Positions 29,033 through 50,581 of a stretch of 64,000 bases of DNA are shown piece after piece (the first letter of the stretch is position 1; each line of letters starts with the position of its first letter). The position numbers and the translations under genes were made by a program. Where the stretch lies: positions 801,395-865,394 of the forward strand of contig CAWEOP010000003.1 of NCBI GenBank assembly GCA_963810755.1, written 5' to 3'. Origin of the DNA: an uncultured Gammaproteobacteria bacterium. GTDB lineage: Bacteria > Pseudomonadota > Gammaproteobacteria > Steroidobacterales > Rariloculaceae. The notes below the pieces were generated by a model, which was given only the letters and a program-made list of their open reading frames with translations, was not told the origin of the DNA and did not search any database.

Positions 29033-29308
29033 TCCGCTTGCAGCCTCGACGCGGGCGCTAAGACTAGCGTTTCCGATTTCAGAACGCGATGCGATTTGCG
29101 TGCCGGCTGGTTAGACGAGCGTTTTCTTAACGCGCGCCTAATACGCCCGCGCGTAATCTCTCGAGGAAACGAGCACCGAGAGAACGCTTTCGATGGAACT
29201 TGCGATCTTCTCCATCGCGCTGCTGCTGATCGCGGCTGTATGGATCGCCGTGGAGAAGCAGCGCTCGCGTCAGTCGAAGCACCGTGAGCCGCAGACGAGC
29301 GACAAAGG

Positions 29309-31240: not shown

Positions 31241-31873
31241 TTAGAGCTTGTGCGCGGGGTCGAAGGTGGGTTTGACGGTGCCGAGGCGCTTCGCGACCTC
31301 GAACAACGTCGGATAGAACTGCACGAACGTGTTGTCCACGGCCGTGTTCGCGGCGTGACACGAGTAGCACGAAGCGGACGTCGGCAAGGCCTTGGCGGAG
31401 CTCGCGGGTCCGTTCTCGCCGTCGAAGCTGAAGTAGCCCCAGCCGTTGCTGCCGGCGTTGCCGCCGAAGCGCGCGACGTCCTTCACGGCGGCTTCGATCG
31501 CGGCGAGCGCGCCTTGCGACTTGCCGACGTTGTCGATCGACGCCGCGCTTTCCGCGCGCCGTACTTCGAGGATGAACATCGTCTTGTCGGGCCAGGTGCC
31601 CGACTTCATGAACTCGCGATAAGCCGGCGGCGTGACGTATACGTTGGTAAAGACGGATGGGCGCTTGCCGTCCGCCGTCGGTGCCAGTGCGGCCGGGCCG
31701 TAGAACATGTCGAGCCCCGAGGTGAGATAGATCCACTCGCGAAAGTCGGCGGGCCGCTCGAGCTCGCCGGCCGCATTGAACGACGGGGCGTCCGCCTCCG
31801 CCGCGAGCGTGCACGTCAAAGCGCTCAGCAACGCGAGCAAGGGGGTGCCGGCTCTAAGGGTGTTCGTAGTCAT
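31241..31873 (-). CDS. cytochrome P460 family protein, secreted
   Basis: It has a signal peptide, the pattern REWIYLTSG...FTNVYV and the C-terminal haem site CYSCHAAN...FVQFYP typical of cytochrome P460. Confidence 0.8.
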   Translation of the reverse strand: MTTNTLRAGTPLLALLSALTCTLAAEADAPSFNAAGELERPADFREWIYLTSGLDMFYGPAALAPTADGKRPSVFTNVYVTPPAYREFMKSGTWPDKTMFILEVRRAESAASIDNVGKSQGALAAIEAAVKDVARFGGNAGSNGWGYFSFDGENGPASSAKALPTSASCYSCHAANTAVDNTFVQFYPTLFEVAKRLGTVKPTFDPAHKL

Positions 31874-32097
31874 CTCGCTCGGGCTCCGTCGATTCTGGCC
31901 GTGCCGGCTTTCTGAGAACGCCCGCGCTCGAAGGAATCGTCGGCTGCGAATTGTACTCCTCCGTTTTCGCGCGCGGTAATGCGGCTAGCGCATTGGATTC
32001 ACACTTTCTCGACGGAGCGGCACCCGACGCGGCCCAGTCGGCTCCGGCACGGCGCACCAGCTCGAACCTCCGCCTATCGCCGAGCCCGCCTGAGACT

Positions 32098-32475
32098 TCA
32101 ACAAACCTGCTCGGGATTTTGGAACAGGTTCGATTGGTCTTCGTCGCCCCGGGGGGACACGCACTTGAAGTCCTTCTCGACGAGTAGCTTCAGAGGGCCG
32201 CCGCGCGGTAACTTCAGCTCGCCGTGCAGCGAAACGGCCGTGTCGTCTTTCGCCCACGTAGAGATTTCGCGCGCCGGAAGCTTCACGACCATACGATCGC
32301 GCGTGTAGGAGGCGCTCGCATTCGAGCTGTTCTCGAGTGACTCCAACGCGAACGTGAACACGGAGCCGTCGGGGAAGCGCGTCTGGCCTTCGACGATGCC
32401 TTGCTCGTCGGCGGCGACTACTTCGTCACGCGACAACCGCAATCTGATGGAATCGTCCAGCAAGCGGAGCTTCAT
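32098..32475 (-). CDS. conserved hypothetical protein (125 aa), last gene of the hydroxytransferase-like operon
   Basis: An intact ORF 43 nt downstream of the beta-subunit gene. MKLRLLDDSIRLRLSRDEV... I cannot name a family confidently. Confidence 0.6.
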   Translation of the reverse strand: MKLRLLDDSIRLRLSRDEVVAADEQGIVEGQTRFPDGSVFTFALESLENSSNASASYTRDRMVVKLPAREISTWAKDDTAVSLHGELKLPRGGPLKLLVEKDFKCVSPRGDEDQSNLFQNPEQVC

Positions 32476-32518
32476 TCACGGTCCTTGTAACGAAAGTGGC
32501 CTGCGCGATTCCGGCTCG

Positions 32519-33364
32519 TCAAGCCGCCAGATCGATTCTGCCGAGGTAAACGCTCTTGCGCAGCTCGAGGTCGAGCCGCTTCGCTTCACGGCCGGCGACC
32601 TCGACGACGACCCGATAGCGTCCGCTGTCGGGCTTGAGACCTTCGATCTTGAACTCGCCGTAGGCGTCGGTCAGCGCTTCGCCCACGACGGATCCGGAAG
32701 CTTCGAGCTTGATCTTCGCATTGGCGACGCAGTCGGTTACACCGTTCACGGTCTTGATGATCGTGCCGCCGACGAACTCGTGCGTGTAGCGATCGAGATT
32801 CTTGTAGTGAACCCTGGGCTTGGTCGCCCACTCCGGATTTAGCTCGCGCAAACCCTCCCGGGATTTGATCGCGGCCATTTCCTCGTCCGTGACCTTCACC
32901 GACTTGAGCGCCCCCGTTGCGCACACCGTGACGCAGCGCGGTTCCGCCCAGCCGCGGTCGAGCAAGTGCGCGTCGAAGAACCAGTGCTGAGGAAGCTTGA
33001 GCTCCTCGTTCCAGCGTACGGCGCCATAGGGACACGCGTCGGCGATGGCCTTCTGCCCCTTGGCCTTGACGGGATCGATGTGCACGATCCCGTCCGGGCG
33101 CTTCGTGACCGCTCCGTTCTTGGCGGCCGCGATGCACGGCGCGTCGTCACAGTGCTGGCACATCACCGGCAGATAGGCGACGTCCATGACGGGGCCCGAG
33201 CCGCGCTCGTTGGAGCGAATGTCGATCCATCGAGACCCATGCTTGGGCATCGGCGCGGCATAGCCTTCGAATTCGTTATCGACGTGCTCGTCCTGATTGG
33301 CCAACGTGCACAGATTGCAGTTGGTGCACTTCGCGACGTCGACGATCAGATTCCACTTCTTCAT
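32519..33364 (-). CDS. 4Fe-4S ferredoxin-type beta subunit with C-terminal Ig/carboxypeptidase-regulatory-like domain (BthL / resorcinol hydroxylase small-subunit-like)
   Basis: The Cys clusters are CTNCNLC, CQHCDDAPC, CPYGAVRWN and CVTVCATGA. The C-terminal ~90 aa beta-sandwich (GGTIIKTVNGVTDCVANAKIKLEASG...GEFKIEGLKPDSGRYRVVVEVAG) matches, from memory, the Pelobacter transhydroxylase small subunit. Confidence 0.85.
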   Translation of the reverse strand: MKKWNLIVDVAKCTNCNLCTLANQDEHVDNEFEGYAAPMPKHGSRWIDIRSNERGSGPVMDVAYLPVMCQHCDDAPCIAAAKNGAVTKRPDGIVHIDPVKAKGQKAIADACPYGAVRWNEELKLPQHWFFDAHLLDRGWAEPRCVTVCATGALKSVKVTDEEMAAIKSREGLRELNPEWATKPRVHYKNLDRYTHEFVGGTIIKTVNGVTDCVANAKIKLEASGSVVGEALTDAYGEFKIEGLKPDSGRYRVVVEVAGREAKRLDLELRKSVYLGRIDLAA

Positions 33365-33395
33365 TGAGGTCGCCCAGTCCGGGATCGCTTGAGTC

Positions 33396-36300
33396 TCACG
33401 CCACTCTCACCTTCGGTTCGGGAACCGGGACGGAGATCTCGCCCTCGCTCCACCTCTCGACTTCGATCAGGCAGCAGCTCGCGCCCATCGAGTGGGCCTT
33501 GCTGATCTGCGACTTGCTCGACGACAGCAGGTTCACGCAGCCGCCGCGGTCGGCCGACTTCCCCGGCTCGCCGACGGGATCGTAGACGCCCGAAGAGCTG
33601 TAGGAGTGCACGACGCCTTTCAGCATGCGGTGCGTGACCTTGGCGGCGCACACCACGGAGCCGCGCGCGTTGTGCAAACGAACGAGATCGTTGTCGCGGA
33701 TGCCGCGTGCCTTCGCGTCGTCGGGATGGATGCGCAGCACCCAATAGTAGTAGCCATCCACGAGCACGCGATGATCGGGGATGTCGTTCAAGAAGCTGTC
33801 TTTGCCGTCCATCTGGGTGTGGAACGAGAAGCGTGGATGCGGCGAGATGAGCTGCAACGGAAAGTCCTCGAAGCCCTTCGCATTCGGGCTCTCCGCCGGC
33901 CGCTCGTACTTCGCGATGGGCGGCCGTTCCACGCTATTCGGATCGAAGCGCTTCAGGCTCTCGCAATCGAACTCGATCTTGCCGCTCTGGGTCTGCAACC
34001 CCTTCAAGTACTCTCCGTTGTAGTCCGACGGTAGCGGCATCGGCTCCGGCACGTCCTTCTTTCTGCCCTCATAGAACCAGTTCCACGAGAGCGGCGCGCG
34101 CTGCTCCTCTTTCTCCGTCGGGACCACGAAGTAACCCTTGCGAACGAACTCCTTCCACGAAATGTACTTCGGCAGGTCCGATCCATCGAACTGCCGCTTG
34201 ACCCAGCCGAGCTCGCCGACGCCTTCGGTGAAATAGGCCGCGAGCCCGAGCCGCTCGCAGACCTTCTGGAAGATCCAGAAATCCGATTTCGATTCGCCGA
34301 GCGGCTCGATGCACTTGTGTTGGAAGGTGATCACGCGATGGTTCAGCTGCTGCTCGCCGTGATGAGCGTAGCCGCCGAGTCCGGCCCACTCGCTGATGTC
34401 GTAGCGCTCGAAGTTCGTGCAGGCCGGCAGGATGATGTCGGCGAACTCGGTGTCGCCTTGCAGCCAGATGTTCTGGCTCACCAGGAACTCGAGGTTCTTG
34501 TGCCGGAACATGTTGATGTAGCGGCTGCTGTTCGGCATCGACGCGATCAGCGAGCCGCCGTACTTCCAGAGCATGTGAACGGGCGAGAAGCCGGGCTTCG
34601 GATACGTGATCTTCTGGAACTGCGCCTCGATGCTCGAGCCGTTCCACACGTAGCCTTCCGCTTTGCCGTCGATGATGGCCTCGGGCAGCTGCATGCGCGG
34701 AATGACCTGCGTGTTCGTGTTGATCGACGGCAACTGCGGCATGCGCTGGTAGAGCGTCACGCCCATGGCGGTGTGGCTGTAGTCGCCCGACATGCCGCCT
34801 TCGGCGTATCCCGGGAAATAGAAGTTGAAATCGAGCGGCGTTCCCCACTGGAGGTTGCCCATGTTGACGCCGGGCTTGCCGAGCCCCTGCATCGCGATGA
34901 GGCACACCATCGTGCGCGCCCACTGAATGCCGGTCGCGTTGCGGCACGCGCCGCCGTGACCGTTGCCCCAGGCTCCGGCGCCGAGATAGGTCTTCTTGCT
35001 CGCCCATTCGCGCGCGAGCGCGCGCACGTCGCTCGCCGGCACGCCCGTCTCGGTCTCCTGCCACTCGGGCGATTTCGGGATGCCGTCGGATAGCGCCAAG
35101 CACGTAGTCGCGCCACTTCTCGAATCCGTGCGTGTGCGTCTCGACGTACTTCTTGTCGTACGTTCCCTCGGTCATCCAGACGTACGCGATCGCGATCGCG
35201 AGCGCCGGGCTCGACGTGGGGCGCGGCGCGATCCACTTGCCGCCGAGGAGCTGAATCGAGTCGTTGTAGTACGGGTCGATGTGGACGAGCTTGATGCCGG
35301 CTTCTTTAAGCCACTGCCGGCGAATCGTGCCTTCGAGCGCGCCGTAAGCGCCGCTGTTCGATTCCGGGTTGCTCGACCAGAACACGACCATCTCGGCTTC
35401 TTTGAGGCAGTCTTCGACGGTCCCGTAGGTCTCCGACTGGCCGACCCGCATCGAGCCGCCCCAGTGATGCGTCGCGCCCCAGTACCAGCCTTCCCAGCTG
35501 TCCGGGTTGTGATGCACCTCGGTCATGCCGACGGCGTTCTCGAACTTGCGAAGCGCGGAGAGGTAATAGCCGATGTTGCCCCACGCGTGATGCGACGGGT
35601 GGCTGCACGCGATCGCGCCGTTGCCGTGCACCGTCTTCTGCCGCTTGATCTCGTTCGCGACGATGTCGAGCGCCTCGTCCCAGCTGATGCGCTCGTAGCC
35701 CGAGACGCCGCGGTTCTGCGGGTTGCGCTCACCGTTCGGATCGAAGTCGACTCGCTTCATCGGATAGAGGATCCGGTCGGGCGAATAGATCGTCGACTTG
35801 ACGGTCTGGCCGTGCGGGGCGAGCGACGTCTTGCGCGGCGGCGTGAACTCTTTGCCTTTCGCTTTGATGGTCCACGGTTGCGGGTCGTGGTCGTCGAACT
35901 CGATCGGCGTCATGCGAACGATCTTGCCGTCCTTGACGTAGACGAACAGAGGTCCGCCGTTCGCCATGTTGGCGTAACGCATCTCGCCGTTGCCTACGTC
36001 GACGCCGTAGCGCCAACCGGCCTGCAGCATCGACTCGAGCGTGAACATGAACCAGATGGCTTTGTCCTGCTCTCCGTCGAGCGTCATGCTGAAGGACTTG
36101 GCCGCGTTGATCCTGCCGAGCTGGTCGTTTGGGTGCGTGAAGATTCTGCAACCCCAAGCGCGCGCTCTTGAGCGCGACGACGACGTCGGGATTCGGGTGG
36201 ATGCCGTGGCGCGACGAGACCTTGCCGTTCTTGATGACGTAGTACCGGCCCGTGCCTGCTTTCACGCGTATCTGACCGACGAGGTCCTGCTCTTTGAGCC

Positions 36301-36409
36301 GCTCGCGGAAGGCGGGATGACGCCACGCGGTGAATTTCATCGCGAGCGCGATGCCATAGAGCAGCGTCGAAAACGCGAGCGTGCTGATTCTTTCCATTCG
36401 GTCGGCCAT
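33396..36409 (-). pseudogene. molybdopterin enzyme alpha subunit, pyrogallol-phloroglucinol hydroxytransferase (AthL)/resorcinol hydroxylase-like, with extra N-terminal TM + SCP2-like region; frame broken twice
   Basis: ORF 33396..35099 and ORF 34069..36087 are collinear with AthL as I recall it ([91 protein letters not shown]). ORF 35729..36502 supplies MADRMERISTLAFSTLLYGIALAMKF... and joins in frame after a break near 36145-36150. The second break is near 35090-35098. Confidence 0.85.
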
Positions 36410-36651
36410 CCCCAGGGTCTTCGTTGACGTTGTTACAAAATGGCGAGCTTGGGCGCCGGCGTCCCACGTTTTTAGCGTTGCAGCATGGAGTTGCCAGCGC
36501 AAGAAATCGGCGCCCTAGGGTACGGTCTCAGCCGCCGGGCGTAAAGGTCGCGCCGGTGCTAAAAGCACCACGTCGATAAGCTCCGGAGGGTTCTGTTAAG
36601 CTTGAAAAAATCGACGTGCTAGCGTCTCCCGAACCGGGCGAGGAAACGACC
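36410..36651. promoter_or_regulatory. divergent intergenic region between the two Mo-enzyme transcription units
   Basis: A 240-bp non-coding gap with locally lower G+C (TTGTTACAAAATGG, GTTTTTAGCG, CTTGAAAAAATCG) and a small hairpin GGTGC-TAAAA-GCACC. I could not assign a promoter. Confidence 0.3.
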
Positions 36652-38857
36652 TTGAGCGCAACGAAACAATCTGTCCGAGCCTCCACCGAGGTACCGGAAA
36701 ACGTCAAAATCTTGAAGAGCGTCTGCCGCAGTTGCCACGGCGGCTGCAGCACGCTGATGCACGTCGAAGACGGTAAGCTCACCAAGGTCGAAGGTGATCC
36801 CGAAGGTCCGCTGAATCACGGCTACCTCTGTCCGATCGGCGCTGCGACCACGCAGCTCGTCTATCATCCGGACCGCCTGAAATACCCGCAGCGCCGCATC
36901 GGGCCGAAAGGCTCCGGCAAGTGGGAGCGCATCTCGTGGGACGAGGCGCTCGACGAGATCTCGGAAAAAGTTCTCAAGATCCGTGCCGAGAGCGGGCCCG
37001 AGTCGATCGCGATGGGCACGGGCACGGGCCGTCATCACATCCGCTGGGTGTCGCGCTTCGGCAACGCGCTCGGGACCCCGAACTGGTGCGAGCCCGGTTT
37101 CGCGCAGTGCTTCCACCCGCGCGTCAACACCTGCATCCAGACGATGGGTGATTTGCCGGTGTGCGATTTCACGGGCGGCACGCCGCCGGCGCTCACGATG
37201 TACTGGGGGCACAATCCCCCGCATTCGGGGCCCGACGGCGAGACGCGGTTCAACGTCCGCGAAGCGTTGCTGACCAAGCCGCGACTCATCACGATCGATC
37301 CGCGCGAGACGGTCCTCGCGAAGAAGTCCGAGGTCTGGCTGCAGCTTCGGCCCGGCACCGACGACGCGCTCGGGCTCGCGTTTCTCAACGTGATCATCGA
37401 GGAAGATCTCTACGATCACGAGTTCTGCGAGAAGTACACGCACGGGTTCAAGGAGCTCGCCGAGCACGTCCACAAATTCACGCCGGAGTGGGCCGAGCCG
37501 ATTACCTGGGTGCCGGCCGACAAGATCCGGGCGGCCGCGCGTCTGTTCGCGACGGTCAAGCCCGCGATGCTCGAGTGGGGGTGCGCGATCGAGCACACGC
37601 CGAACACGATCCAGACGATTCGCGCGCTGTCGATGATCCCGGCGATCACGGGCAACATCGACGTGCCCGGCGGTTGGATCTTCGGCATGCACGGCGCCGG
37701 CCGTTTCCCGAGCCTGATCGAGAATCTCGATCCGGAAGTCGAGAAGAAGCGGCTCGGCTACGAGAAGTACAAGATGCTGTGCGGCGAAGGCGCCGACCTT
37801 CCGGCCTGTCACATCCCGACGCTGATCGACGCGATGCTCTACGGCAGAGCCGTATCGCGTCCGGGCGTTCCTCGTGTTCGGCAACAACACGCTGACGACG
37901 TATGCGAACACGAACATGGTCTACAAGGCGCTGATGAAGCTCGACTTCATGGTATGCGCCGATCTCTTCATGACGCCGACGGCAGAGCTAGCGGACATCG
38001 TGCTGCCCGCCGCGTCCTGGCCCGAGCTCAACCAGATCTGCGCGCTGCCCACGATTGCGGGCAACGTGGTCATGAGCAACCAGCAAACCGTGCGCATGGG
38101 CGAGTGCAAGTCGGACGAAGAGATCTTCGTCGAGCTCGCACGTCGCATGAATCTTCCGGTGTGCCAAGAGCCGGTCGAGGAAGTGCTCGACAAGATGCTC
38201 AAGAACGGCGGCCAGAAAGTCGACTTCAGGGGTCTGACCGAGCAGGGTTGGATCCACATGAAGCAGGAATACCGGAAGTACGAGAAGAAAGGATTCAAGA
38301 CGCCGACCGGCAAGCTCGAGCTCTACTCGACGCGGCTCGAGGCGATGGGTTACGCGCCGCTCCCGTACTACGAGGAACCGCCGGAGAGTCCGCTCTCCAC
38401 GCCCGGCGTAGCGGCTGAGTTTCCGCTCGTGCTGACGACCGGCGGACGGATTCCGACCTTCTTCAACTCGGAGCACCGGCAGCTGCCGCTGTGCCGCAAG
38501 GGCCACCCCGATCCGCTCTGCGACATCCACCCGGACACGGCTGCCGAGCACGGGATCGAGGACGGCGAATGGATGTTCATCGAGACACGCCGCGGCCGAA
38601 TCAAACAGATCGCGAACGTGACGACCAAGATCGATGCGCGCGTGATCCACTGCGAGCACGGCTGGTGGTTCCCGGAGAGGGAGGGCCCCGACTACGGAAT
38701 CTGGGAGTCGAACGCCAATCTCCTGACCGACAATCAGGGGCCGTTCGATCCGCAGATGGGCACCTATCAGCTGCGCGGGCTGTTGTGCCGCGTCGGGAAG
38801 ATCACGCCGGAGAACGACGTGTTCGGGCCTCCGGAGTTGGAAGCCGCGACCGCTTAA
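36652..38857 (+). pseudogene. cytoplasmic MopB-family molybdopterin/tungstopterin enzyme, acetylene-hydratase-like subgroup; frame broken once
   Basis: TTG 36652 follows GAGGAA. The N-terminal CRSCHGGC...C is a 4Fe-4S motif. ORF 36616..38418 continues as ORF 37874..38857 (PYRVRAFLVFGNNTL) with a break near 37845-37850. Blocks DFMVCADLFMTPTAELADIVLPAASW, TPTGKLELYS...GYAPLPYYEEP and EFPLVLTTGGR resemble acetylene hydratase as I recall it. There is no Tat signal. Confidence 0.85.
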
Positions 38858-38935
38858 GTCTGGACGCCGCGGCCGGCCTGACGCGAGTGGTCGGAGCCGG
38901 CGGAGGAGCTCGCCAAGCAGGGATCACTCGCATCG

Positions 38936-41900
38936 ATGGCTGACAGGCACGAAAACGAAGAACAAAGCCTGACTCTCGGTATCGCCGGATTTCGCTACGA
39001 GGACCTTTCGAGACCCGAGGGGCTGAAGCGCCTGCACGATACGTTCGTCGCGGAGCTCGCTGAAACGTCCGCGGGCCTGCACCGGGAATATCAGGACTAT
39101 CGCAGCTGTCGCGGCGAAGGCATGACTCCGGTCGCCGTGTCCGATCTCCTCGTCAGATTGGCACCGCGCGTCGGCGAATTCGTCGCGCGGCTGTTCGACG
39201 TGTCGGCGGAGCGTGAGCGTCAGCGCGCAGCCATCCAGCGCGAGCTCGACTCGGTCTTCGTGTTTCGTAACGCGATCGTCGGCGAGCTAGCGAAGCACTT
39301 CAAAGGCGTCGATGCTCACGCCTGGGACGCGGCCGCCGTGCAAAGCCGAGCTCGAGCTCCTGATCCAAAGCGGGTTTCCGGATCTAGCCGATGACCCGGA
39401 TCAGGAACTCCGTATTGCGGCAACGGCCGCGCGATTGTGGCGCTGGGCGAACGCGGCTGCGGGCGACGATGCGGACGCTGCTCGCGCGGCCGTTCGGGGG
39501 CTGCGCGCTCGACTCGGTGCCGACGGCCGAGCCGCCGCGGCGTTTGCAGCGGCGATGCAGCTGCACCGACGGCGAGCTCGTCGCGGCTCTGCTCGAGGTC
39601 GTCCGGCGCTGGTCGCATCTCGCGCACGTCGATCCGGAGCTGGCGAGGACCGTCGCGAATTGGGTCAGCTTCAAGGAGCCAGAGAAGACGAATTTCGACT
39701 CGTTGGTGCCGCACGAGATCGAGACGCGCGACGGCTACGCGGTCTGGAAGGGGCGTGCGGAGACGCGTCGTCGCCGCGATGGTTTCGCGTTGACCGATGA
39801 GCGTCACGGCTTGCGGCATGTCCTCTACGAGATCGATCACTGCATCTATTGCCACGACCGCGATACCGATTCGTGCTCCAAGGGCATGCGCAATCGCAAG
39901 GACGGCAGCTACAAGGTCAATCCGCTCGGCGTCAACATCACCGGCTGCCCGCTCGAAGAGAAGATCTCCGAGATGCACCTCGTCAAACGGCAGGGCGACA
40001 ACATCGGCGCGCTCGCTCTGATCGTCATCGACAATCCGATGTGCCCGGGCACCGGGCATCGCATCTGCAACGACTGCATGAAGGGCTGCATCTATCAAAA
40101 GACGCAGCCCGTCGACATCCCGCAGATCGAGACGAGCGTGCTGACCGACGTCCTGTTCATGCCCTATGGGTTCGAGATCTACAGCTTGCTCACGCGCTGG
40201 AATCCCCTGAACGTACGTCGTCCCTATGCGTTGCCGTATCACGGAACGAATGCGCTGGTCGTGGGTCTCGGGCCGGCGGGCTATACGCTCGCGCACTATC
40301 TCTTGAACGAGGGGTTCGGCGTCGTCGGCGTCGACGCGCTGAAGATCGAGCCTTTGCCGGCCGAGCTCGTCGGCGACGGCGAGCACGCGCCAAGGCCGAT
40401 CAGGGATTTCAAAGCACTCTACGACGATCTCGACAAGCGCATGCTGGCCGGATTCGGCGGCGTTGCCGAGTACGGCATTACGGTGCGCTGGGACAAGAAT
40501 TTCCTGAAGGTCATTTATCTCGTTCTCGCGCGCCGCCAGAGTTTCCGCTGCTATGGCGGCGTGCGTTTCGGCGGAACATTGACGATCGAGGACGCATGGG
40601 AGCTCGGTTTCGATCACATCGCGATCGCGACGGGCGCCGGTAAGCCGACGATCATCGATCTCGAGAACAATTTGATTCGCGGGATCCGCAAGGCGTCGGA
40701 TTTTCTGATGGCGCTGCAGCTGACGGGCGCCGCGAAGATGTCGTCGCTCGCCAATCTGCAGGTACGCCTGCCTGCCGGCGTCATCGGCGGCGGCTTGACC
40801 GCGATCGATACGGCGACCGAGCTCATGGCCTACTATCCGATCCAAGTCGAAAAACTTCTGAAGCGATACGAGCAGATCTGCGCCGGTCGCGATGAAGCGG
40901 AGCTGCGCCGCGGTTTCGATGCGGAAGAACTGGAGATCCTCGACGAATTCCTCGGACACGGACGCGAAATTCGTAACGAACGTCAGCGCGCCGCAGCGAG
41001 CGGTGAAGAGCCGGACTTTCAGCCGCTGATCGATCGCTGGGGCGGCGTCACGCTTTTCTACCGCAAGGGTATCGATCAGGCGCCCGCCTATCGACAGAAT
41101 CACGAGGAGATCGCCAAGGCCCTGGAAGAAGGGATCGGCCTCGCCGAAGGCATGAATCCGCTCGTCGCCATCGCAGACGACTACGGCCACCTCTGCGCGA
41201 TGCGGTTCGAGAAGGCGTCAAAGTCCGATGATGACGGAACCGTCGCCGGCGACAAAGTCGACGTCCCGCTCCGCAGCCTGTACGTCGCGGCCGGCACGTC
41301 GCCGAACACCATCTATGAGCAGGAGCACCCCGGCACGTTCCAGATGGACGGCAAGTTCTTCCAGCGCTACGAGCCGCGCTGGCTCGATCGCGAGATCGCG
41401 CTCGAGCCCATGCACGACACGCGCTGGCCCAAGATCGGCAGACCGGCGCCGCTGACGTCCTATGCCAAGGACGGTAGATACATCAGCATCTATGGCGACA
41501 ATCATCCCGTCTATGCCGGCAATGTCGTCAAGGCGATGGCCAGCGCCAAGGACGGATATCCGTGGGTCGTGAAGCTGCACGAAGCCAAGATCGGCGCTGC
41601 CGATGCGGATCGGCAGCGCGATCGCGACGCCGCGCTGCGCGCTCTCTTTGCCCGGCTGGACGATCTGCTGATCGCGACCGTCGTGGCCGTCAAGCGGCTG
41701 ACGCCGACGATCGTAGAGGTCATTGCTCGTGCGCCGACCGCTGCGAAAGGCTTCGCGCCCGGCCGCTTCTACCGAGTTCAGAGTTTCGAGAGCAGCGCGC
41801 CGCGGATCGACGATACGGTTCTCGTAACCGAGGGACTTGCGCTGACCGGCGCCTGGGTCGACAAGGAACGAGGGCTGATTTCACTGATCGCGCTCGAGAT

Positions 41901-42651
41901 GGGAACGTCATCGCGTCTCTGCGCCGAGTGGCAGCCCGGCGATCGGATCATCGTGATGGGGGCCACGGGCACGCCGACGGAGATTCCGTCGGGCAAGACC
42001 GTGCTTCTCGCAGGCGGCGGCCTCGGCAATGCGGTGCTGTTCTCGATCGGCAAGGCGATGCGGGCGGCCGGCAACCGCGTGATCTATTTTGCGGGCTACC
42101 GCGACGCCGGCGGCTTGTTCAAGGCCGAGGAGGTCGAAGCCGCGGCAGACGTCGTCGTCTGGGCCGTCGATCGCGCGCCCGGCGTGCGGCCTCTAGCGAC
42201 GCATCGGCCGCAGGACTTGAGCTGCATCGGCAATATTCTCGACGCGATGGAGGCCTACGCGAAGGGCGAGCTCGGGCCGCAGACGATTCGGCTCGATGAA
42301 GTCGATCATCTCGTCGCGATCGGATCCGACCGCATGATGGCCGCCGTGAAGGAAGCCCGTCATGGGCGACTGAAACCGTATTTGAAGCCCGGGCACATGG
42401 CGATTGGTTCGATCAACTCGCCCATGCAATGCATGATGAAAGGCATCTGCGCGCAATGCCTCTGCAAGCAGATCGACCCCGATAGCGGTGAGGAGTACTT
42501 CGTGTACTCCTGCTACAACCAGGACCAGGAGCTCGACCGCGTCGACTTCGAAAACTTGAACGCGCGGCTCCGCCAAAACTCCGTTCAGGAAAAACTCTCC
42601 AACCGGTGGCTGGATCTGCTGCTGGAGCGCGACAGGATCGGCCGGGCTTGA
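38936..42651 (+). pseudogene. about 1238-aa multidomain flavoprotein: unknown N-domain + GltD/NfnB-like FeS/FAD/NAD(P) module + PyrK/NfnA-like FNR module with C-terminal 2Fe-2S; frame broken twice
   Basis: ORFs 38936..39394, 39312..39800 and 39391..42651 join at about 39340 and about 39565. The Cys-rich HCIYCHDRDTDSCSKG...CPGTGHRICNDCMKGC is followed by two Rossmann motifs (VVGLGPAGYTLA, VIGGGLTAIDTA). Then comes an FNR-like domain (FAPGRFYRVQ, LLAGGGLGNAVLFSIG) and CMMKGICAQCLCK...YSC. Confidence 0.8.
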
Positions 42652-42740: not shown

Positions 42741-43187
42741 CTATTTCAGGTTCGCGACCTGCATCGTTTCTGAACCGAGCACGCGCCGCAGCTTGCCGCG
42801 ATCGACCGCCGCCTGACTTTGGGCCGCGACGGAGCCTTCGACCTGTTTGGCGATCTCGTCATTCTTGGCCATTGCGCCGTCGAGGGCCGCCCAGTTCTTG
42901 TAAGTGATGACCAAGTAGACATCCGCGTCATTCTCCGTGCGCGGCTCGGCCACGAGCACCTGGTAGTCGACGATATAGCCGGCTTTCTTCGCCGCTTCCT
43001 GGGAAGTTTTCCAGGTCGTGTCCAGGTATTTCATGTAGTCATCGAACTTACCGTATTCGGTCCGAATCCTGGCTACATTCACGATTTCGCCTTCGGTGTA
43101 GGCGTGGTCGTCGGCGAGGGCGGTCGTGCAGATCACGCTCAAAGATCCGAACGCGGCCAACGCCGCGGATCGCAAGGTCGTTCGCAT
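42741..43187 (-). CDS. secreted hypothetical protein (148 aa)
   Basis: It has the signal peptide MRTTLRSAALAAFGSLSVICTTALA and an intact ORF with typical codon bias. I recognise no family. Confidence 0.6.
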   Translation of the reverse strand: MRTTLRSAALAAFGSLSVICTTALADDHAYTEGEIVNVARIRTEYGKFDDYMKYLDTTWKTSQEAAKKAGYIVDYQVLVAEPRTENDADVYLVITYKNWAALDGAMAKNDEIAKQVEGSVAAQSQAAVDRGKLRRVLGSETMQVANLK

Positions 43188-43434
43188 TTTGTTCCCCTTT
43201 CGGTAGACGTTGTTATTGGTGAAGGAGGGCGGCGAGTCCGGGTGGAAGCGGGCCGCGCTATCGGCTCGACGGGACGCTACGCCCCCCCTTGGCGCGCGTC
43301 AAACGTCCGCGCTGTGACTGAGCTATCCGTAGGTCTCGCGTTCGCGTCGGCGCAACTCTTTCGAGAAACGCTCGGCCAACTCGGGGTTGCACTCGACGAC
43401 GTTCTGCCGGTGCAGGCTTCCTGAGCGCGTGTCG

Positions 43435-44562: not shown

Positions 44563-44691
44563 TGGTCGTCTCCATACGGGTGAACGTTGGGCGACATGCT
44601 GCGCGCGGCGGTTGAAGGGCTCCAGGCGCGAAACGGCAAAAGTTTGCGCCGTCTTTTTACGTGCGCTTTACACGCTGGCGTACGCGTGTTC

Positions 44692-45591: not shown

Positions 45592-45598
45592 CGCGATC

Positions 45599-46342: not shown

Positions 46343-46376
46343 CAACTGCGACCCGGATCTGCCGGGCCTGGCGCGG

Positions 46377-47240
46377 CTAGCTCTGGTTCCACTCCACGAG
46401 CGGCGCGTCTTTCGCTTCACGCTCGTAGAACCACTTGAGCCCGAGCGCCGCTTCCTTGCTCAAGATCGTGGTCTTGAAGCTCCGCCACGCCTGAATCTCG
46501 AAGTAGTCGAGCGGACCGTCCAGAGCGTTGAGCCGATGCGGCACGCCCGGGGGGAAATAGACGAGAGTGCCGGGCTCGATCGCCTGCGACGTTTCGCCGA
46601 CGTCGACTTTGCCGCGCCCCTTGAACGTCATGTAGACGTGATCCGCTCCATTCGGGTTCGCGTCGGTGCCCTTGTGCATGTGATAAGGCGATGCGCCGCC
46701 GTCGTTGTAGTGCATCTCGCCCGCCTGGATGGCGTTGGTCGACGTCAGCCGGCTGCCGTCGAGCAGCCTGACGCTCGACTCCGCGCAGAAGCGGCGCACA
46801 CGGCCGCCGCTCGCATCGCTCAAGCCGCGCAGCTTCTTGCGGTTGAAGAAGTACCCGGGCCCGCCGGGCAGATCGCCCTCGACGGCGGCCGGCGGCTTCG
46901 GCGTGACGGTGTGCAACAGCTCCAGATCCGACCCGACGGCTTCGAATCGCGCCGATTCGCCCGGTACGAGCAGCACGCCTGCGCCGTCCTCGGCCTTGTG
47001 CGATTCATCGTCGAAATACAAGACGCCCTTCGATGAGCCCCGCATGACATAGACGATGTGATAGTTCTTGCCCGCGTCGACCGTGAACGTCCGGCCTTTG
47101 GAGATCGTTCGCCGATAGACGGTCAGGTTCTTCGATCCGCACAGACTCGGGCTGCAAATCGTCCGTTCCAAACCGGACTCGACGGGCTTGGCCTCGGCGG
47201 TGTTCGAATCGATGATGGAAACGTCGCTGATCGTCGGCAT
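46377..47240 (-). CDS. bicupin-like protein
   Basis: ORF 46377..47288. ATG 47240 lies 9 nt after GAGGAG. It has two cupin-like halves (HIVYVMRG...VLLVPGE and YHMHKG...HVYMTFKG...LVYFPPGVPH). Confidence 0.7.
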   Translation of the reverse strand: MPTISDVSIIDSNTAEAKPVESGLERTICSPSLCGSKNLTVYRRTISKGRTFTVDAGKNYHIVYVMRGSSKGVLYFDDESHKAEDGAGVLLVPGESARFEAVGSDLELLHTVTPKPPAAVEGDLPGGPGYFFNRKKLRGLSDASGGRVRRFCAESSVRLLDGSRLTSTNAIQAGEMHYNDGGASPYHMHKGTDANPNGADHVYMTFKGRGKVDVGETSQAIEPGTLVYFPPGVPHRLNALDGPLDYFEIQAWRSFKTTILSKEAALGLKWFYEREAKDAPLVEWNQS

Positions 47241-47324
47241 CTTTATTTTCTCCTCACGAGTCTGCGGTTCTAGATTTCGTACCGGCACGCGGCGGCAGCG
47301 CTATCGTGCGCGAGACGGTGGCTC

Positions 47325-48596
47325 CTAATCGCTCTTGGGCTTGTGGCTGCCTGCGACGGAGTACAACACCGACGTTTTGCGGGTCTTCTGATAGTCCTCT
47401 AGAGACTCACCGCGCATGGCGGCGTAGATCTTTTGATTCGGTACGCCGACGGCGGCAGCGAGCTTTTCCAAGATGAAGAAGATCACGCCGTAGCGGATGA
47501 GCGCGCGCCAGTCGAGGCGCCGCACCATGTCCTTCTCTTCTTCCGTGAGGCCGCCCCTCACGTACGAGCCTTCGCGATCGTACAGGAACCGGCCCCGCAG
47601 CTCCGGCTGGATGATGCCGTGGAGATACTTGTTGAGGCGATACGCCCTCGTGCTGCTCTCGAACGTAAATGGATAGGAGCCCTCGATTTTCGACACGCCC
47701 TCGTACTCGCGCCGGGCTCTTGCGAAATGGGCTTCGGGACTCTCGCCTTCGTCGTCCTCGGATAGATCCTCGTAGATCACGGTCGCCGTAGCGGTCATCG
47801 ACGGGAGGCAATAGGACTGATGCACCTTGCGTACTTTCGGCGTCAGGGCGCCACGCATGACGAGCCACATGACGACTTCCGCGCCCTCGATGCCGCCGCG
47901 CTTCGCGAAGTCCGCAATGGACAGCTCGGTCAGCTTTTCGGGGTCCTTCTCGAGGAGCTCGAGAAACTCCATGTCCCACTCGGTATTGTTGAAGCCTGCG
48001 CGCTCGCCGCTGACCTGATGGGAGAGGCCGCCGGTGCCGACGATCGCGACTTTGAGATCCTCGGGAAAGCTCTGAATCGCCTTGCGCAGCGAGCGGCCGA
48101 GCGCGAAACAGCGCCGGGCCGTCGGGATCGGAAACTGCAGCACGCCGACTTGGAGCGGCACGAGGGCCACGGGCCACTCGTGCTCGTGCGGCAGCATGAT
48201 GGACAGCGGCGAGAACACGCCGTGGTCGAGACCCTTCGACTGAAAGAACGAGAGATCGAACTCGTCTGCGACGAGCCCATTCGCGATGTGCTTCGCGAGC
48301 GCCGGATGTCCCTTGATCGCGGGCAACGGCCGCGGACCTCCGCCTTCGTCCGCGACTGCGAACGTTTCCGCGAAGCCGAGCGCGAAGTTGGAATAGTGGT
48401 CGAAGAAGAACGAGGTGACGTGATCGTTATAGACGAAGAACAGCACGTCGGGGGCCTTCTCCTTGAGCCACGCTTGCACCGGAGCGAAGCCCTCGAAGAT
48501 CGGCGCCCAGATCGGATCGTCGGGCTTTTGCGTGTCGAACGCGAAAGCGATCGCAGGCGTATGTGAGGCGGCGATTCCACCTACTATCGTCGCCAA
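47325..48596 (-). CDS. gallate-dioxygenase-type extradiol dioxygenase (LigB-like N-domain fused to LigA-like C-domain)
   Basis: A TTG start after GGAG. The 423-aa protein has a class III extradiol core (GIAASHTP, VYNDH, DHG, GTGGLSHQ) and a C-terminal ~120 aa LigA-like region (YRLNKYL...LDWRALIRYGVIFFILEKLAA). Size and fusion architecture match GalA/DesB-type gallate dioxygenases as I recall them. Confidence 0.8.
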   Translation of the reverse strand: MATIVGGIAASHTPAIAFAFDTQKPDDPIWAPIFEGFAPVQAWLKEKAPDVLFFVYNDHVTSFFFDHYSNFALGFAETFAVADEGGGPRPLPAIKGHPALAKHIANGLVADEFDLSFFQSKGLDHGVFSPLSIMLPHEHEWPVALVPLQVGVLQFPIPTARRCFALGRSLRKAIQSFPEDLKVAIVGTGGLSHQVSGERAGFNNTEWDMEFLELLEKDPEKLTELSIADFAKRGGIEGAEVVMWLVMRGALTPKVRKVHQSYCLPSMTATATVIYEDLSEDDEGESPEAHFARARREYEGVSKIEGSYPFTFESSTRAYRLNKYLHGIIQPELRGRFLYDREGSYVRGGLTEEEKDMVRRLDWRALIRYGVIFFILEKLAAAVGVPNQKIYAAMRGESLEDYQKTRKTSVLYSVAGSHKPKSD

Positions 48597-48641
48597 ATCA
48601 AGACTCCGTCGAAAATGTAAGGACTGAATTATAGGGTATTC

Positions 48642-48658
48642 GGACCCCTTTGGGGCCC
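48642..48658 (-). terminator. short GC hairpin immediately after the DUF885 stop
   Basis: The minus-strand RNA GGGCCCC-AAA-GGGGUCC forms 7 bp (one G-U). There is no U-tract. A TATAAT (48628-48633, minus) follows, about 32 nt upstream of the dioxygenase TTG. Confidence 0.3.
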
Positions 48659-48659
48659 G

Positions 48660-50438: not shown

Positions 50439-50581
50439 CGCGGCTCACTTGCGATCGATGCGGCCATTGTGCCGACGGCGACGCGTCGTAGACAACCCGA
50501 GGCGGTCGGCTAGGCGCCTTCGGTGAGGATGCGCGCGGCGCAAGGGCAGTGCCACGGGCATACGAGCGCGATTTCCGTTCC

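What the first reader, a model, noticed from the sequence alone, without database searches (positions are those of the whole stretch)
32098..42651. Divergent cluster joining two Pelobacter-type Mo/W enzymes with a giant bifurcase-like flavoprotein
On the minus strand lie an AthL-like alpha subunit, a BthL-like FeS/Ig-domain beta subunit and a 125-aa unknown protein. On the plus strand, starting 240 bp away, lie an acetylene-hydratase-like MopB enzyme and then a 1238-aa GltD/NfnB + PyrK/NfnA fusion. Neither Mo enzyme has a Tat signal. The characterised relatives I recall are pyrogallol-phloroglucinol transhydroxylase and acetylene hydratase of Pelobacter, and resorcinol hydroxylase of Azoarcus anaerobius. 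They come from anaerobes and are not known to partner with an NAD(P)H-linked multi-flavin/FeS protein. The arrangement suggests an undescribed hydroxylation/dehydroxylation or hydration system for aromatic or unsaturated substrates. Its electrons would be supplied or removed by the fusion flavoprotein.
Basis: inference. Interest (0 to 1): 0.75.

Follow-up and report, generated by a model that had tools for sequence, protein, structure and literature searches.

The report
Two-molybdoenzyme phenol module beside bystander flavoprotein
The window carries a conserved but uncharacterised pair of molybdenum enzymes for reshaping polyhydroxy-aromatic compounds, next to a gallate ring-cleavage gene; the giant flavoprotein beside them looks like a lineage-specific neighbour, not a proven partner.

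Summary
The five genes are at the stated coordinates, and the family calls are correct. They are an AthL-like alpha, a BthL-like beta, DUF7009, an acetylene-hydratase-clade MopB, and a 1237-aa NfnB+NfnA-like fusion.

Three of the genes are broken by five single-base insertions. Similar breaks occur across the whole window, so this is a noisy assembly and not decay of the cluster.

Once the frames are corrected, alpha is 1005 aa and carries a conserved N-terminal SCP2 domain resembling UbiJ. Beta lacks the cysteines of one of BthL's three FeS clusters.

- **Alpha-beta:** adjacent in about 80 of 85 loci.
- **The second MopB:** almost always lies near alpha-beta and two small cupins, in Gamma-, Alpha- and Betaproteobacteria. 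It accompanies only about 11% of alpha-beta loci.
- **The giant flavoprotein (Pfam RP005_N, NCBIfam PRK06567):** follows MopB2 only in one gammaproteobacterial clade. It is missing in close relatives. Its 65-68% identical relatives sit among housekeeping genes.
- **DUF7009:** rarely present.
- **Nearby genes:** a gallate dioxygenase equivalog and a bicupin.

Verdict: the finding is partly supported. This is a new variant of the AthL/RhL-type Mo hydroxylase systems. Coupling to the flavoprotein is unproven.

The parts
32098..32475 (-). DUF7009 protein (125 aa). An occasional neighbour, not a conserved member of the module.
   Evidence: Pfam PF22668, E 8.5e-29. By tblastn it is found only in L014 and L087. 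L004, L005 and L088 carry a 7Fe ferredoxin gene at this position instead.
32519..33364 (-). Beta subunit (281 aa). BthL-like ferredoxin domain plus a C-terminal Ig-like domain. It keeps the cysteines for two [4Fe-4S] clusters, not three.
   Evidence: Fer4_11 plus CarboxypepD_reg. Aligns to 4v4c_B at 223 bits over residues 1-277. In 9 of 9 family members checked, BthL Cys126 is Trp and Cys129 is Asp; Cys23 is replaced in 8 of 9 (kept in Thauera).
33396..35982 (-). Alpha subunit, catalytic AthL-like part (residues about 144-1005). Contains a +1 frame break near 35095.
   Evidence: PF21423, PF00384 and PF01568. Aligns to 4v4c_A at 970 bits, residues 144-990. The frame switch shows in the GC3 plot and the DNA. 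The D-S-W motif with the Ser Mo ligand is present in all 120 best homologues.
35983..36409 (-). Alpha subunit, N-terminal SCP2-fold domain (about 143 residues), fused in frame once a +1 break near 36147 is repaired.
   Evidence: Homologues of about 1000 aa cover 97-100% of the repaired 1005-aa protein. AlphaFold2 model has mean pLDDT 82. Top Foldseek matches in PDB are UbiJ-SCP2 6h6o/6h6p (E 2.6e-6, prob 1.0), then alkylsulfatase SCP2 domains and sterol carrier proteins.
36410..36615 (.). Divergent intergenic region between alpha and MopB2 (about 206 bp).
   Evidence: Sequence read. The simple scan finds no sigma-70-like consensus.
36616..38857 (+). MopB2: a stand-alone, cytoplasmic MopB enzyme of the acetylene-hydratase / catechol-dehydroxylase clade (746 aa counted from the GTG start). 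It has an N-terminal [4Fe-4S] motif and a +1 frame break at 37846.
   Evidence: PF04879, PF00384 and PF01568. Aligns to 2e7z_A at 366 bits. The motif C-R-S-C-H-G-G-C (His where acetylene hydratase has Asp13) and the Cys-ligand motif NWCEPGFAQCF are kept in 114 of 120 homologues. No adjacent FeS subunit gene was seen in the orthologue loci inspected (L005, L088, L169, L172, L175).
38936..42651 (+). Giant flavoprotein (1237 aa after two +1 repairs near 39340 and at 39563). Domain order: RP005_N domain, Cys-rich region, NfnB/GltD-like FAD/NAD(P) part, then NfnA/PyrK-like part. A lineage-specific neighbour.
   Evidence: NCBIfam PRK06567 at 625 bits. Homologues carry PF27156 RP005_N plus Pyr_redox_2. 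PDB matches to 5jca_L and 5jca_S. Full-length 65-68% identical homologues occur in Methylococcus, Methylocaldum and Methylobacter.
46377..47300 (-). Bicupin (about 303-307 aa). It is the fused equivalent of the two small cupins that accompany alpha-beta in Alpha- and Betaproteobacteria.
   Evidence: Cupin_2 and AraC_binding. The N-terminal half matches the Thauera 116-aa cupin (E 3.6e-11) and the C-terminal half matches the 137-aa cupin (E 7.9e-23). Orthologues lie next to MopB2 in L004-L007, L089, L091, L092, L094, L100 and L172.
47325..48659 (-). Gallate dioxygenase (fused LigB-LigA, GalA/DesB type). An O2-dependent ring-cleavage enzyme.
   Evidence: NCBIfam equivalog NF009904 at 689 bits against a cut-off of 412. 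Matches DesB 3wku_A at 597 bits. Syntenic with the cluster in L004-L007, L087, L089, L091, L094, L100, L102 and L172.

Best explanation
**What is shown**

The core is a conserved module of two molybdenum enzymes plus cupins, acting on polyhydroxylated benzenes or benzoates.
- **Alpha-beta** is a cytoplasmic Mo enzyme of the AthL/BthL type. This is the same branch as pyrogallol-phloroglucinol transhydroxylase and, by its genomic context in Thauera, the resorcinol / 3,5-dihydroxybenzoate hydroxylases.
  - It keeps the Ser Mo ligand and most substrate-binding residues.
  - It carries an N-terminal SCP2 lipid/quinone-binding domain.
  - Its beta subunit keeps cysteines for only two FeS clusters.
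- **MopB2** is a stand-alone enzyme of the acetylene-hydratase / catechol-dehydroxylase clade. It has a Cys metal ligand and an invariant His where acetylene hydratase has its catalytic Asp.
- **A gallate dioxygenase and an MFS transporter** lie close by.

**What is inferred**

- Alpha-beta adds or relocates a ring hydroxyl using water or a phenolic co-substrate, without O2.
- MopB2 then removes a hydroxyl or hydrates the product. Together with the cupins, this yields a vicinal triol such as gallate, pyrogallol or hydroxyhydroquinone. That product is cleaved aerobically by the neighbouring dioxygenase.
- Electrons, if there are net electrons, probably leave through the two FeS clusters to a quinone held by the SCP2 domain, or pass between the two Mo enzymes.

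**The giant flavoprotein and the frame breaks**

- The giant NfnAB-like flavoprotein belongs to a broadly conserved family of unknown function (Pfam RP005_N, NCBIfam PRK06567).
- It lies downstream of MopB2 through clade-level synteny. The unrelated Kup and cytochrome P460 genes on the other flank are syntenic with the cluster in the same way.
- The frame breaks are assembly errors.
For: **Families**
- Family and structure matches.
- The repaired proteins match intact homologues end to end. Intact copies sit on Illumina-type contigs L088 and L172.

**Alpha-beta**
- Adjacent in about 80 of the 85 alpha-centred loci; several of the exceptions are cut by contig ends.
- SCP2 fold of the N-terminal domain.
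- Loss of one cluster's cysteines in beta.
- D-S-W motif, His144, Tyr404 and Tyr560 are kept; Arg153 is Tyr.

**MopB2**
- Its hallmark motifs are nearly invariant.
- It lies near alpha-beta and the cupins in three proteobacterial classes, in different gene orders.

**Aromatic context**
- Gallate dioxygenase equivalog.
- Tannase next to alpha-beta in L001.
- An Amidohydro_2-family gene in L088 and an amidohydrolase-family gene in L170.
- VOC and FAH family genes in Burkholderia and Salipiger.
- E1/E2/E3 genes of the hydroxyhydroquinone-pathway type in Thauera chlorobenzoica and in Rhodospirillaceae loci L009 and L012.

**Giant flavoprotein**
- Housekeeping neighbourhoods in M. capsulatus and L174.
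- Absent next to MopB2 in L005-L007, L091, L100, L102, L169 and L175.
- Kup is syntenic with the cluster in L006, L014, L087 and L088, and cytochrome P460 in L088-L090.
Against: - No substrate or activity was tested. Nobody has shown what any SCP2-fused alpha-beta or any MopB2 orthologue does.
- The pathway order, the hydroxyl-shift idea and the quinone role of the SCP2 domain are all inference.
- MopB2 is present in only 9 of 85 alpha-centred loci, so alpha-beta usually works without it.
- The giant gene follows MopB2 on the same strand with only a 40-78 bp gap and no terminator-like site. This holds in about a dozen loci spanning 73-91% identity. Co-transcription and a local redox role cannot be excluded.
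- MopB2 has only one FeS cluster and no FeS subunit gene, so a redox reaction would need some external partner.
- I could not obtain the sequences of the resorcinol or 3,5-dihydroxybenzoate hydroxylases (RhL/RehL, DbhL). The link to those enzymes rests on gene context in Thauera chlorobenzoica and on my memory of the literature.
Confidence: 0.55

Rival explanations
1. All five genes form one system, and the NfnAB-like giant flavoprotein is the dedicated NAD(P)H-linked electron donor or acceptor for one or both Mo enzymes.
For: - The giant follows MopB2 on the same strand with a 40-78 bp gap, in about a dozen related loci. Identity across these is 73-91% for the giant and 84-97% for MopB2.
- No terminator-like site lies between the two genes.
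- MopB2 has no FeS partner gene of its own.
- A 7Fe ferredoxin gene flanks the cluster in L004, L005 and L088.
- The giant resembles NAD(P)H:ferredoxin oxidoreductases.
Against: - The giant is absent at this position in interleaved close relatives: L006 (alpha 93% identical), L005, L007, L091, L100 and L102.
- It is absent from all alpha- and betaproteobacterial MopB2 loci.
- The giant family keeps 65-68% identity to methanotroph proteins. In the two such relatives whose context was read, the neighbours are housekeeping genes and no Mo enzyme is nearby.
- The unrelated Kup and cytochrome P460 genes are syntenic with the cluster in the same way.
- DUF7009 is present in only three loci.
Confidence: 0.15
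2. Alpha-beta is simply a genuine pyrogallol-phloroglucinol transhydroxylase, which is how pathway-annotation pipelines label it. MopB2 and the giant are both unrelated neighbours.
For: - 970 bits to AthL and 223 bits to BthL.
- The Ser ligand, His144, Asp174, Tyr404 and Tyr560 are conserved.
- A 2026 preprint annotates such homologues in SAR116 as pgthAB. SAR116 loci L033 and L047 are in my alpha set.
Against: - The extra SCP2 domain is absent from the 875-aa AthL: AthL residue 5 aligns to residue 144 here.
- Arg153 is Tyr in all 120 best homologues.
- Beta lacks one cluster's cysteines.
- The repeated, rearranged co-location of MopB2 and the cupins with alpha-beta in three classes is hard to explain by chance.
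- Contexts vary widely (tannase, hydroxyhydroquinone-type E1/E2/E3, VOC/FAH genes), which argues for diverse substrates.
Confidence: 0.12
3. The cluster is a decaying pseudogene array. The five frameshifts are real mutations.
For: Five single-base insertions lie in three of the five genes.
Against: - The same kind of break occurs throughout the window, including the Kup transporter in five pieces.
- There are no in-frame stops. Codon bias (GC3 of 0.8-0.95) is intact on both sides of each break.
- The repaired proteins are 90-92% identical to their closest intact homologues.
- Related long-read contigs (L004, L014, L087) are broken at other positions, while short-read contigs are intact.
Confidence: 0.05

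Closest known systems
Pyrogallol-phloroglucinol transhydroxylase AthL/BthL (PgtL/PgtS) of Pelobacter acidigallici, PDB 4v4c
   Same: - Alpha aligns over residues 144-990 at 970 bits. Beta aligns over its full length at 223 bits.
- It has the AhtL-like first domain.
- It keeps the D-S-W motif with the Ser Mo ligand, plus His144, Tyr404 and Tyr560.
- Beta has the C-terminal Ig-like domain.
- There is no Tat signal.
   Different: - An added ~143-residue N-terminal SCP2 domain.
- Arg153 is replaced by Tyr across the family.
- Beta lacks the cysteines of one of the three [4Fe-4S] clusters.
- The hosts are mostly aerobic Proteobacteria.
- It is linked here to a gallate dioxygenase rather than to a fermentative phloroglucinol pathway.
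Resorcinol hydroxylase RhLS/RehLS of Aromatoleum (Azoarcus) anaerobium and 3,5-dihydroxybenzoate hydroxylase DbhLS of Thauera aromatica AR-1 (oxidative hydroxyhydroquinone pathway)
   Same: - Same AthL/BthL-type branch. The MopB review read groups RhL with PgtL among the Ser-ligand enzymes. The pathway is described in the paper read.
- In Thauera chlorobenzoica a 1002-aa alpha-beta pair sits with E1/E2/E3, aldehyde dehydrogenase, TRAP transporter and LysR genes. That resembles this pathway's cluster.
- From memory, those hydroxylase activities are membrane-associated. That would fit a lipid-binding SCP2 domain.
   Different: - I could not obtain the RhL or DbhL sequences, so orthology and the presence of the SCP2 domain in them are untested.
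- The window has no BtdLS or BqdLMS genes. It has an O2-dependent gallate dioxygenase instead.
- As far as I could find, MopB2 is not part of the described pathway.
Acetylene hydratase of Pelobacter acetylenicus (PDB 2e7z) and the gut catechol dehydroxylases (Dadh/Cldh clade)
   Same: - MopB2 aligns to 2e7z over residues 36-723 at 366 bits.
- It has the N-terminal [4Fe-4S] motif and a conserved Cys metal ligand.
- It is cytoplasmic and has no partner subunit gene, like acetylene hydratase.
- The eLife 2020 paper places catechol dehydroxylases next to acetylene hydratase and notes homologues in Azoarcus and Thauera.
   Different: - Where acetylene hydratase has Asp13 (catalytic, as I recall) after the second cluster Cys, 114 of 120 homologues have His.
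- Relatives only 43-49% identical to MopB2 usually have an adjacent FeS subunit gene; MopB2 does not. From memory, the characterised dehydroxylases have Tat signals and membrane partners.
- MopB2 is genomically tied to an AthL-like enzyme.
NfnAB, the NADH-dependent reduced ferredoxin:NADP+ oxidoreductase (PDB 5jca, 4ylf), and the RP005_N / PRK06567 family
   Same: - The giant has an NfnB/GltD-like segment (residues 507-630) and an NfnA/PyrK-like segment (residues 915-1107).
- It matches PRK06567 at 625 bits. Its homologues carry Pfam RP005_N.
   Different: - It is a single 1237-aa polypeptide with an extra ~270-residue N-terminal domain.
- Its score is below the PRK06567 cut-off of 1072.
- The family occurs in methanotroph genera such as Methylococcus, which I know as aerobes.
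- No literature on its function was found.

Membership tests
Pyrogallol-phloroglucinol transhydroxylase (AthL/BthL) | Alpha is a MopB-fold subunit with the AhtL-type first domain and a Ser Mo ligand in a D-S-W motif. | tested here: met
   PF21423, PF00384 and PF01568. The D-S-W motif aligns to AthL D174-S175-W176 and is present in all 120 best homologues.
Pyrogallol-phloroglucinol transhydroxylase (AthL/BthL) | The substrate-site residues His144, Arg153, Asp174, Tyr404 and Tyr560. This list is from my memory of Messerschmidt et al. 2004; the paper was not available here. | tested here: inconclusive
   H144, D174, Y404 and Y560 are conserved. R153 is Tyr in the window and in all 120 homologues. 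The residue list itself could not be verified.
Pyrogallol-phloroglucinol transhydroxylase (AthL/BthL) | Alpha is about 875 aa with no additional domain. | tested here: not met
   Alpha is 1005 aa. AthL residue 5 aligns to residue 144. The extra N-terminal part is an SCP2 fold and is conserved across the family.
Pyrogallol-phloroglucinol transhydroxylase (AthL/BthL) | Beta has twelve cluster cysteines (three [4Fe-4S] clusters) plus a C-terminal Ig-like domain. | tested here: not met
   The Ig-like domain is present. BthL C126 and C129 are Trp and Asp in 9 of 9 family members; C23 is replaced in 8 of 9, and C145 is sometimes replaced. Eight cysteines are invariant, enough for two clusters. Which cysteines bind which cluster is inferred from ferredoxin motif rules.
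Pyrogallol-phloroglucinol transhydroxylase (AthL/BthL) | Catalyses pyrogallol to phloroglucinol with 1,2,3,5-tetrahydroxybenzene as co-substrate. | not testable with these tools
   This needs an enzyme assay.
Resorcinol / 3,5-dihydroxybenzoate hydroxylases (RhLS, DbhLS) | Orthology to RhL or DbhL, and a location in a cluster with HHQ dehydrogenase (BtdLS) and the HBQ-cleaving E1/E2/E3 complex (BqdLMS). | tested here: inconclusive
   The reference sequences could not be obtained. The window has no E1/E2/E3 or DoxX-type genes in the stretch annotated, 27-58 kb. Thauera chlorobenzoica, L009 and L012 do have E1/E2-type genes near a ~1000-aa alpha.
Acetylene hydratase | Cys ligand to the metal, an N-terminal [4Fe-4S] cluster, and the catalytic Asp13 next to the second cluster Cys. 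| tested here: not met
   The Cys ligand and the cluster motif are present, but Asp13 is His (C-R-S-C-H-G-G-C) in the window and in 114 of 120 homologues. The role of Asp13 is from my memory of Seiffert 2007 and tenBrink 2011.
Catechol dehydroxylases (Dadh/Cldh clade) | Membership of the AH-related clade, plus demonstrated reductive dehydroxylation. The multi-subunit members have an FeS subunit and a membrane subunit. | tested here: inconclusive
   Acetylene hydratase is the closest solved relative, as reported for that clade. No dehydroxylase sequence was available to place MopB2. The orthologue loci show no adjacent FeS subunit gene, whereas relatives 43-49% identical do.
RP005_N / PRK06567 flavoprotein family | Full-length architecture: RP005_N domain, GltD-like part and PyrK-like part in a single polypeptide. 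| tested here: met
   99-100% coverage by 1215-1266-aa homologues that carry PF27156 plus PF07992. PRK06567 is the best NCBIfam hit at 625 bits, below its curated cut-off of 1072.
Electron-bifurcating NfnAB | A two-subunit enzyme with defined FAD, [2Fe-2S] and 2x[4Fe-4S] sites, and ferredoxin/NADH/NADPH activity. | not tested
   Only local similarity to both subunits was seen (44-64 bits). Cofactor sites were not mapped, and the activity cannot be tested here.

The most novel reading that the evidence does not exclude
The two Mo enzymes act as a redox-coupled pair that moves a ring hydroxyl without O2.
- The SCP2-AthL-like alpha-beta hydroxylates with water.
- The stand-alone AH-clade MopB2 reductively removes another hydroxyl.
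- The net effect converts meta-substituted phenols (phloroglucinol-, resorcylate- or 2,4,6-trihydroxybenzoate-type) into vicinal triols that an aerobic dioxygenase can cleave.
- In this gammaproteobacterial clade, the RP005-family NfnAB-like flavoprotein has been recruited as the NAD(P)H valve that balances the electrons.

This would be the first function for that flavoprotein family, and the first pyridine-nucleotide-linked Mo dehydroxylase in an aerobe.
Probability: 0.12. Interest if true: 0.8.

Novelty: new variant of a known kind. Interest (0 to 1): 0.5.

Why it matters
- Homologues of the 'anaerobic' transhydroxylase are routinely annotated as pgthAB in aerobic soil and marine bacteria such as SAR116. 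They are then used to infer polyphenol metabolism.
- This work shows that these proteins form a distinct architecture. They have an SCP2 fusion, a beta subunit with two FeS clusters, and Tyr in place of Arg153. A subset is tied to a second, uncharacterised Mo enzyme and to cupins.
- If the module relocates or adds ring hydroxyls without O2 ahead of dioxygenase cleavage, it would fill a gap in how aerobes use meta-hydroxylated phenols from tannins, flavonoids and phlorotannins.
- Cultured carriers exist, including Thauera chlorobenzoica, Burkholderia stagnalis and Salipiger abyssi, so the question can be tested directly.
- The giant flavoprotein family is itself a widespread unknown.

Tried and rejected
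- **Reference papers.** I tried to read the primary papers on the resorcinol and 3,5-dihydroxybenzoate clusters and on the transhydroxylase structure (PMC1913315, PMC4579451, PMC6328779, PMC511022). None is held. RhL and DbhL lengths, sequences and the active-site residue list therefore rest on memory.
- **Literature searches.** Searches for DUF7009 and RP005 found nothing relevant. A search for gene names such as rehLS and dbhLS returned mostly noise.
- **Promoters and terminators.** The scan gave no promoter-like sites, and terminator-like sites were no more frequent than in shuffled sequence. It is uninformative for operon structure.
- **Pseudogene decay.** Considered and rejected, because the frame breaks occur across the whole window.
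- **Second copies.** I looked in the window for a second copy of any cluster gene, or for a 7Fe ferredoxin. None was found.
- **Searches not run.** I did not run the whole-library representative search. I did not make a full-length alpha model, because it would not decide the partner question. I did not use Rfam or the phage tools, which are not relevant here.

Full report
**1. What is in the sequence**

The window has about 66% G+C. Mechanical ORF listing is therefore noisy, so I used third-position GC to find the true reading frames.

- On the minus strand: a 125-aa DUF7009 protein, a 281-aa Fer4_11 + CarboxypepD_reg protein, and an AthL-like MopB protein.
- On the plus strand: a MopB protein with an Fe4S4 domain, and a very large flavoprotein.

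Three of these genes are interrupted. The coding frame switches without a stop codon at five places:
- near 35095 and 36147 in alpha;
- at 37846 in MopB2;
- near 39340 and at 39563 in the giant.

Aligned against intact orthologous DNA (L088, L172), each break is an uncompensated single-base insertion in the window. After repair the proteins are 1005, 746 and 1237 aa. Each then matches database homologues over nearly its full length, at up to 90-92% identity.

Frame breaks of the same kind are spread over the whole window. The Kup K+ transporter at 29127-31169 is in five pieces. The closest genomes are long-read metagenome bins, for example 'uncultured Gammaproteobacteria MFD02134.bin.2.148' (L014, about 90% nucleotide identity). 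Their copies are broken at other positions. Short-read contigs carry intact genes. I therefore treat the breaks as assembly errors.

**2. Corrections to the anatomy**

Alpha does not start at 36087. After repair of the break near 36147, the frame continues upstream to an ATG at 36409. This adds about 143 residues, and homologues of 993-1023 aa cover them.

An AlphaFold2 model of this N-terminal part, built on 30 homologues, has mean pLDDT 82. Foldseek against the PDB returns SCP2 folds. The UbiJ SCP2 domain comes first (6h6o, E 2.6e-6, probability 1.0), followed by alkylsulfatase SCP2 domains and sterol carrier proteins. AthL itself is 875 aa, and its residue 5 aligns to residue 144 here. The SCP2 fusion is therefore a real architectural difference.

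The beta subunit aligns end to end with BthL. Three BthL cysteines are replaced in the window and its close relatives, and a fourth varies:
- BthL Cys126 and Cys129 are Trp and Asp in all nine family members examined.
- Cys23 is replaced in eight of the nine (Asn in the window; kept in Thauera chlorobenzoica).
- Cys145 is replaced in three of the nine members checked.

Eight cysteines remain invariant, enough for two [4Fe-4S] clusters rather than three. Which cysteines bind which cluster is my inference from ferredoxin motif rules.

In alpha, the D-S-W motif with the Ser ligand is kept, as are His144, Tyr404 and Tyr560. Arg153 is Tyr in all 120 best homologues. The residue list is from my memory of the 2004 structure paper, which was not available.

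MopB2 is closest to acetylene hydratase among solved structures (366 bits). It keeps the Cys metal ligand. Where acetylene hydratase has Asp13, MopB2 has His, in a C-R-S-C-H-G-G-C motif found in 114 of 120 homologues. The literature places the gut catechol dehydroxylases next to acetylene hydratase and notes uncharacterised homologues in Azoarcus and Thauera.

Neither Mo enzyme has a twin-arginine signal; this was read directly from the sequences.

The giant matches NCBIfam PRK06567 at 625 bits, below that model's cut-off of 1072. It also matches both subunits of NfnI, and its homologues carry Pfam RP005_N.

**3. Co-conservation**

I collected 85 alpha-centred loci, 80 of them from species-representative genomes. 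I then looked for the other cluster genes in them by tblastn.
- Beta lies next to alpha in about 80 of the 85; several of the exceptions are cut by contig ends.
- A MopB2 orthologue (>=70% identity) is present in 9 of 85.
- The giant is present only in L004 and L014.
- DUF7009 is present only in L014.

I then collected 80 MopB2-centred metagenome loci, plus look-ups of individual proteins.

*Gamma clade, MopB2 >=84% identical.*
- The giant follows MopB2 in L087-L090, L092-L094, L120 and L172/L173.
- It does not in L091, L100 and L102, nor in L005-L007.
- L006 is closer to the window (alpha 93% identical) than several loci that do carry the giant.

*MopB2 orthologues at 66-81% identity.*
- Four loci show an operon of alpha, beta, two small cupins and MopB2: L074 (a betaproteobacterial genome) and the metagenome contigs L098, L099 and L108.
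- In two alphaproteobacterial loci (L023, L175) MopB2 is divergent from alpha; L175 reads LysR-alpha-cupin-cupin-beta.
- In Thauera chlorobenzoica MopB2 lies 8 kb from alpha-beta-cupin-cupin. That cluster also has TRAP transporter, E1, E2, E3, aldehyde dehydrogenase and LysR genes.
- None of these loci has the giant.

The 307-aa 'cupin' in the window (46377-47300) is a bicupin. Its two halves match the two small Thauera cupins, at E 3.6e-11 and 7.9e-23. The set of alpha, beta, cupins and MopB2 therefore recurs in three classes in different gene orders. That is good evidence for a functional link.

The link is asymmetric. MopB2 almost always has alpha-beta nearby, but most alpha-beta pairs have no MopB2.

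**4. The giant flavoprotein**

Its family is large and well conserved. Full-length hits at 65-68% identity occur in Methylococcus capsulatus, Methylocaldum, Methylobacter and Acidiferrobacterales.
- In M. capsulatus its neighbours are DUF488, NUDIX, hemE, aroB, aroK and pilus genes.
- In another genome (L174) they are a MutS-family gene, a beta-lactamase-fold hydrolase gene (Lactamase_B + HAGH_C domains), and isocitrate dehydrogenase and glutamate-cysteine ligase genes.
- In the window's clade, the unrelated Kup and cytochrome P460 genes on the other flank are syntenic with the cluster in the same way.

I therefore read the adjacency as clade-level synteny.

The caveats are real. The gap to MopB2 is only 40-78 bp, on the same strand, with no terminator-like site. 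MopB2 has no FeS partner gene. A 7Fe ferredoxin gene flanks the cluster in some relatives. A local redox role is not excluded, and I give it about 15%.

**5. Functional context**

The LigB-LigA fusion at 47325-48659 passes NCBIfam's equivalog cut-off for gallate dioxygenase (689 bits against 412). It matches DesB at 597 bits. It is syntenic with the cluster in many relatives.

Other alpha-beta loci sit beside genes of aromatic catabolism:
- a tannase with a TonB receptor and a TRAP transporter (L001);
- an Amidohydro_2-family gene (L088) and an amidohydrolase-family gene (L170);
- VOC and fumarylacetoacetase-family genes in Burkholderia stagnalis and Salipiger abyssi;
- E1/E2/E3 genes resembling the oxidative hydroxyhydroquinone pathway, which is described in the paper read.

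A 2026 preprint annotates such homologues in SAR116 as pgthAB, and SAR116 loci are in my set (L033, L047).

The common theme is di- and trihydroxy-benzenes and -benzoates.

**6. Most likely mechanism**

*Shown.* There is an AthL/RhL-type Mo enzyme with an SCP2 fusion and a two-cluster beta. There is a genomically linked AH-clade MopB with a distinctive His, together with linked cupins. A gallate dioxygenase lies nearby.

*Inferred.*
- Alpha-beta adds or relocates a ring hydroxyl without O2.
- MopB2 dehydroxylates or hydrates the product.
- The result is a vicinal triol that is cleaved aerobically.
- The SCP2 domain either holds a quinone acceptor or binds a lipophilic substrate.

The substrate is unknown.

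**7. Verdict**

The five-gene 'system' reduces to a conserved module of alpha, beta, cupins and MopB2, plus two non-conserved neighbours.

It is a new variant of a known kind of enzyme system. It is moderately interesting, and it can be tested in cultured carriers.

Noticed in passing
window, whole length (e.g. 29127-31169, 48692-50444, and near 2420, 12750, 19430, 19850, 24130, 24800, 25600, 61930, 62460): Frame breaks without stop codons occur about once per 3 kb. The Kup K+ transporter is split into five ORFs and DUF885 into two. The five breaks inside the cluster are all single-base insertions relative to intact orthologues.
   Followed up: partly
window 47325-48659 (-): A fused LigB-LigA protein passes the NCBIfam equivalog cut-off for gallate dioxygenase (689 bits against 412). 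It matches Sphingobium DesB (3wku) at 597 bits. No galB, galC or galD-type downstream genes were recognised in the part of the window that I annotated.
   Followed up: partly
window 42741-46459 (-): A block of four genes (a 185-aa unknown, a VWA-domain protein, a family-2 glycosyltransferase and a methyltransferase) lies between the giant flavoprotein and the bicupin. It is absent at this position in relatives L004, L087 and L172, so it looks like a strain-specific insertion.
   Followed up: partly
window 31241-31984 (-) and 29127-31169 (-): Cytochrome P460 and Kup genes flank the cluster. Kup is syntenic in L006, L014, L087 and L088, and cytochrome P460 in L088-L090. This shows that unrelated genes keep their neighbourhood in this clade.
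   Followed up: yes
L004 13590-13913, L005 13867-14190, L088 1228-1551: A 107-aa 7Fe-type ferredoxin gene (Fer4 + DUF3470) occupies the position next to beta where the window, L014 and L087 have DUF7009. The window has no such ferredoxin anywhere.
   Followed up: partly
L169 (Thauera chlorobenzoica CP018839, 1561240-1583390): A cultured denitrifier carries a large cluster: a 1002-aa alpha, beta, two cupins, an NAD-binding dehydrogenase, an M24 peptidase, a TRAP transporter, MopB2 (73% identical), E3, aldehyde dehydrogenase, CobW, fused E1, glyoxalase, E2 and LysR. It looks like a variant of the oxidative hydroxyhydroquinone pathway that has MopB2 and no DoxX-type BtdS.
   Followed up: partly
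L140 351-6225 and L145 6417-15400: Distant relatives also pair the two enzyme types. An AthL-like protein (36-38% identical) with a BthL-like protein (37-40%) lies next to an AH-like MopB (45%). The two-Mo-enzyme pairing may therefore be older than the proteobacterial module.
   Followed up: no
L001 5835-9357: In a 6-Mb genome, tannase, a TonB-dependent receptor and MarR lie directly upstream of an alpha-beta pair (82% identical to the window's alpha), and a TRAP transporter lies downstream. MopB2 and the giant are absent.
   Followed up: no
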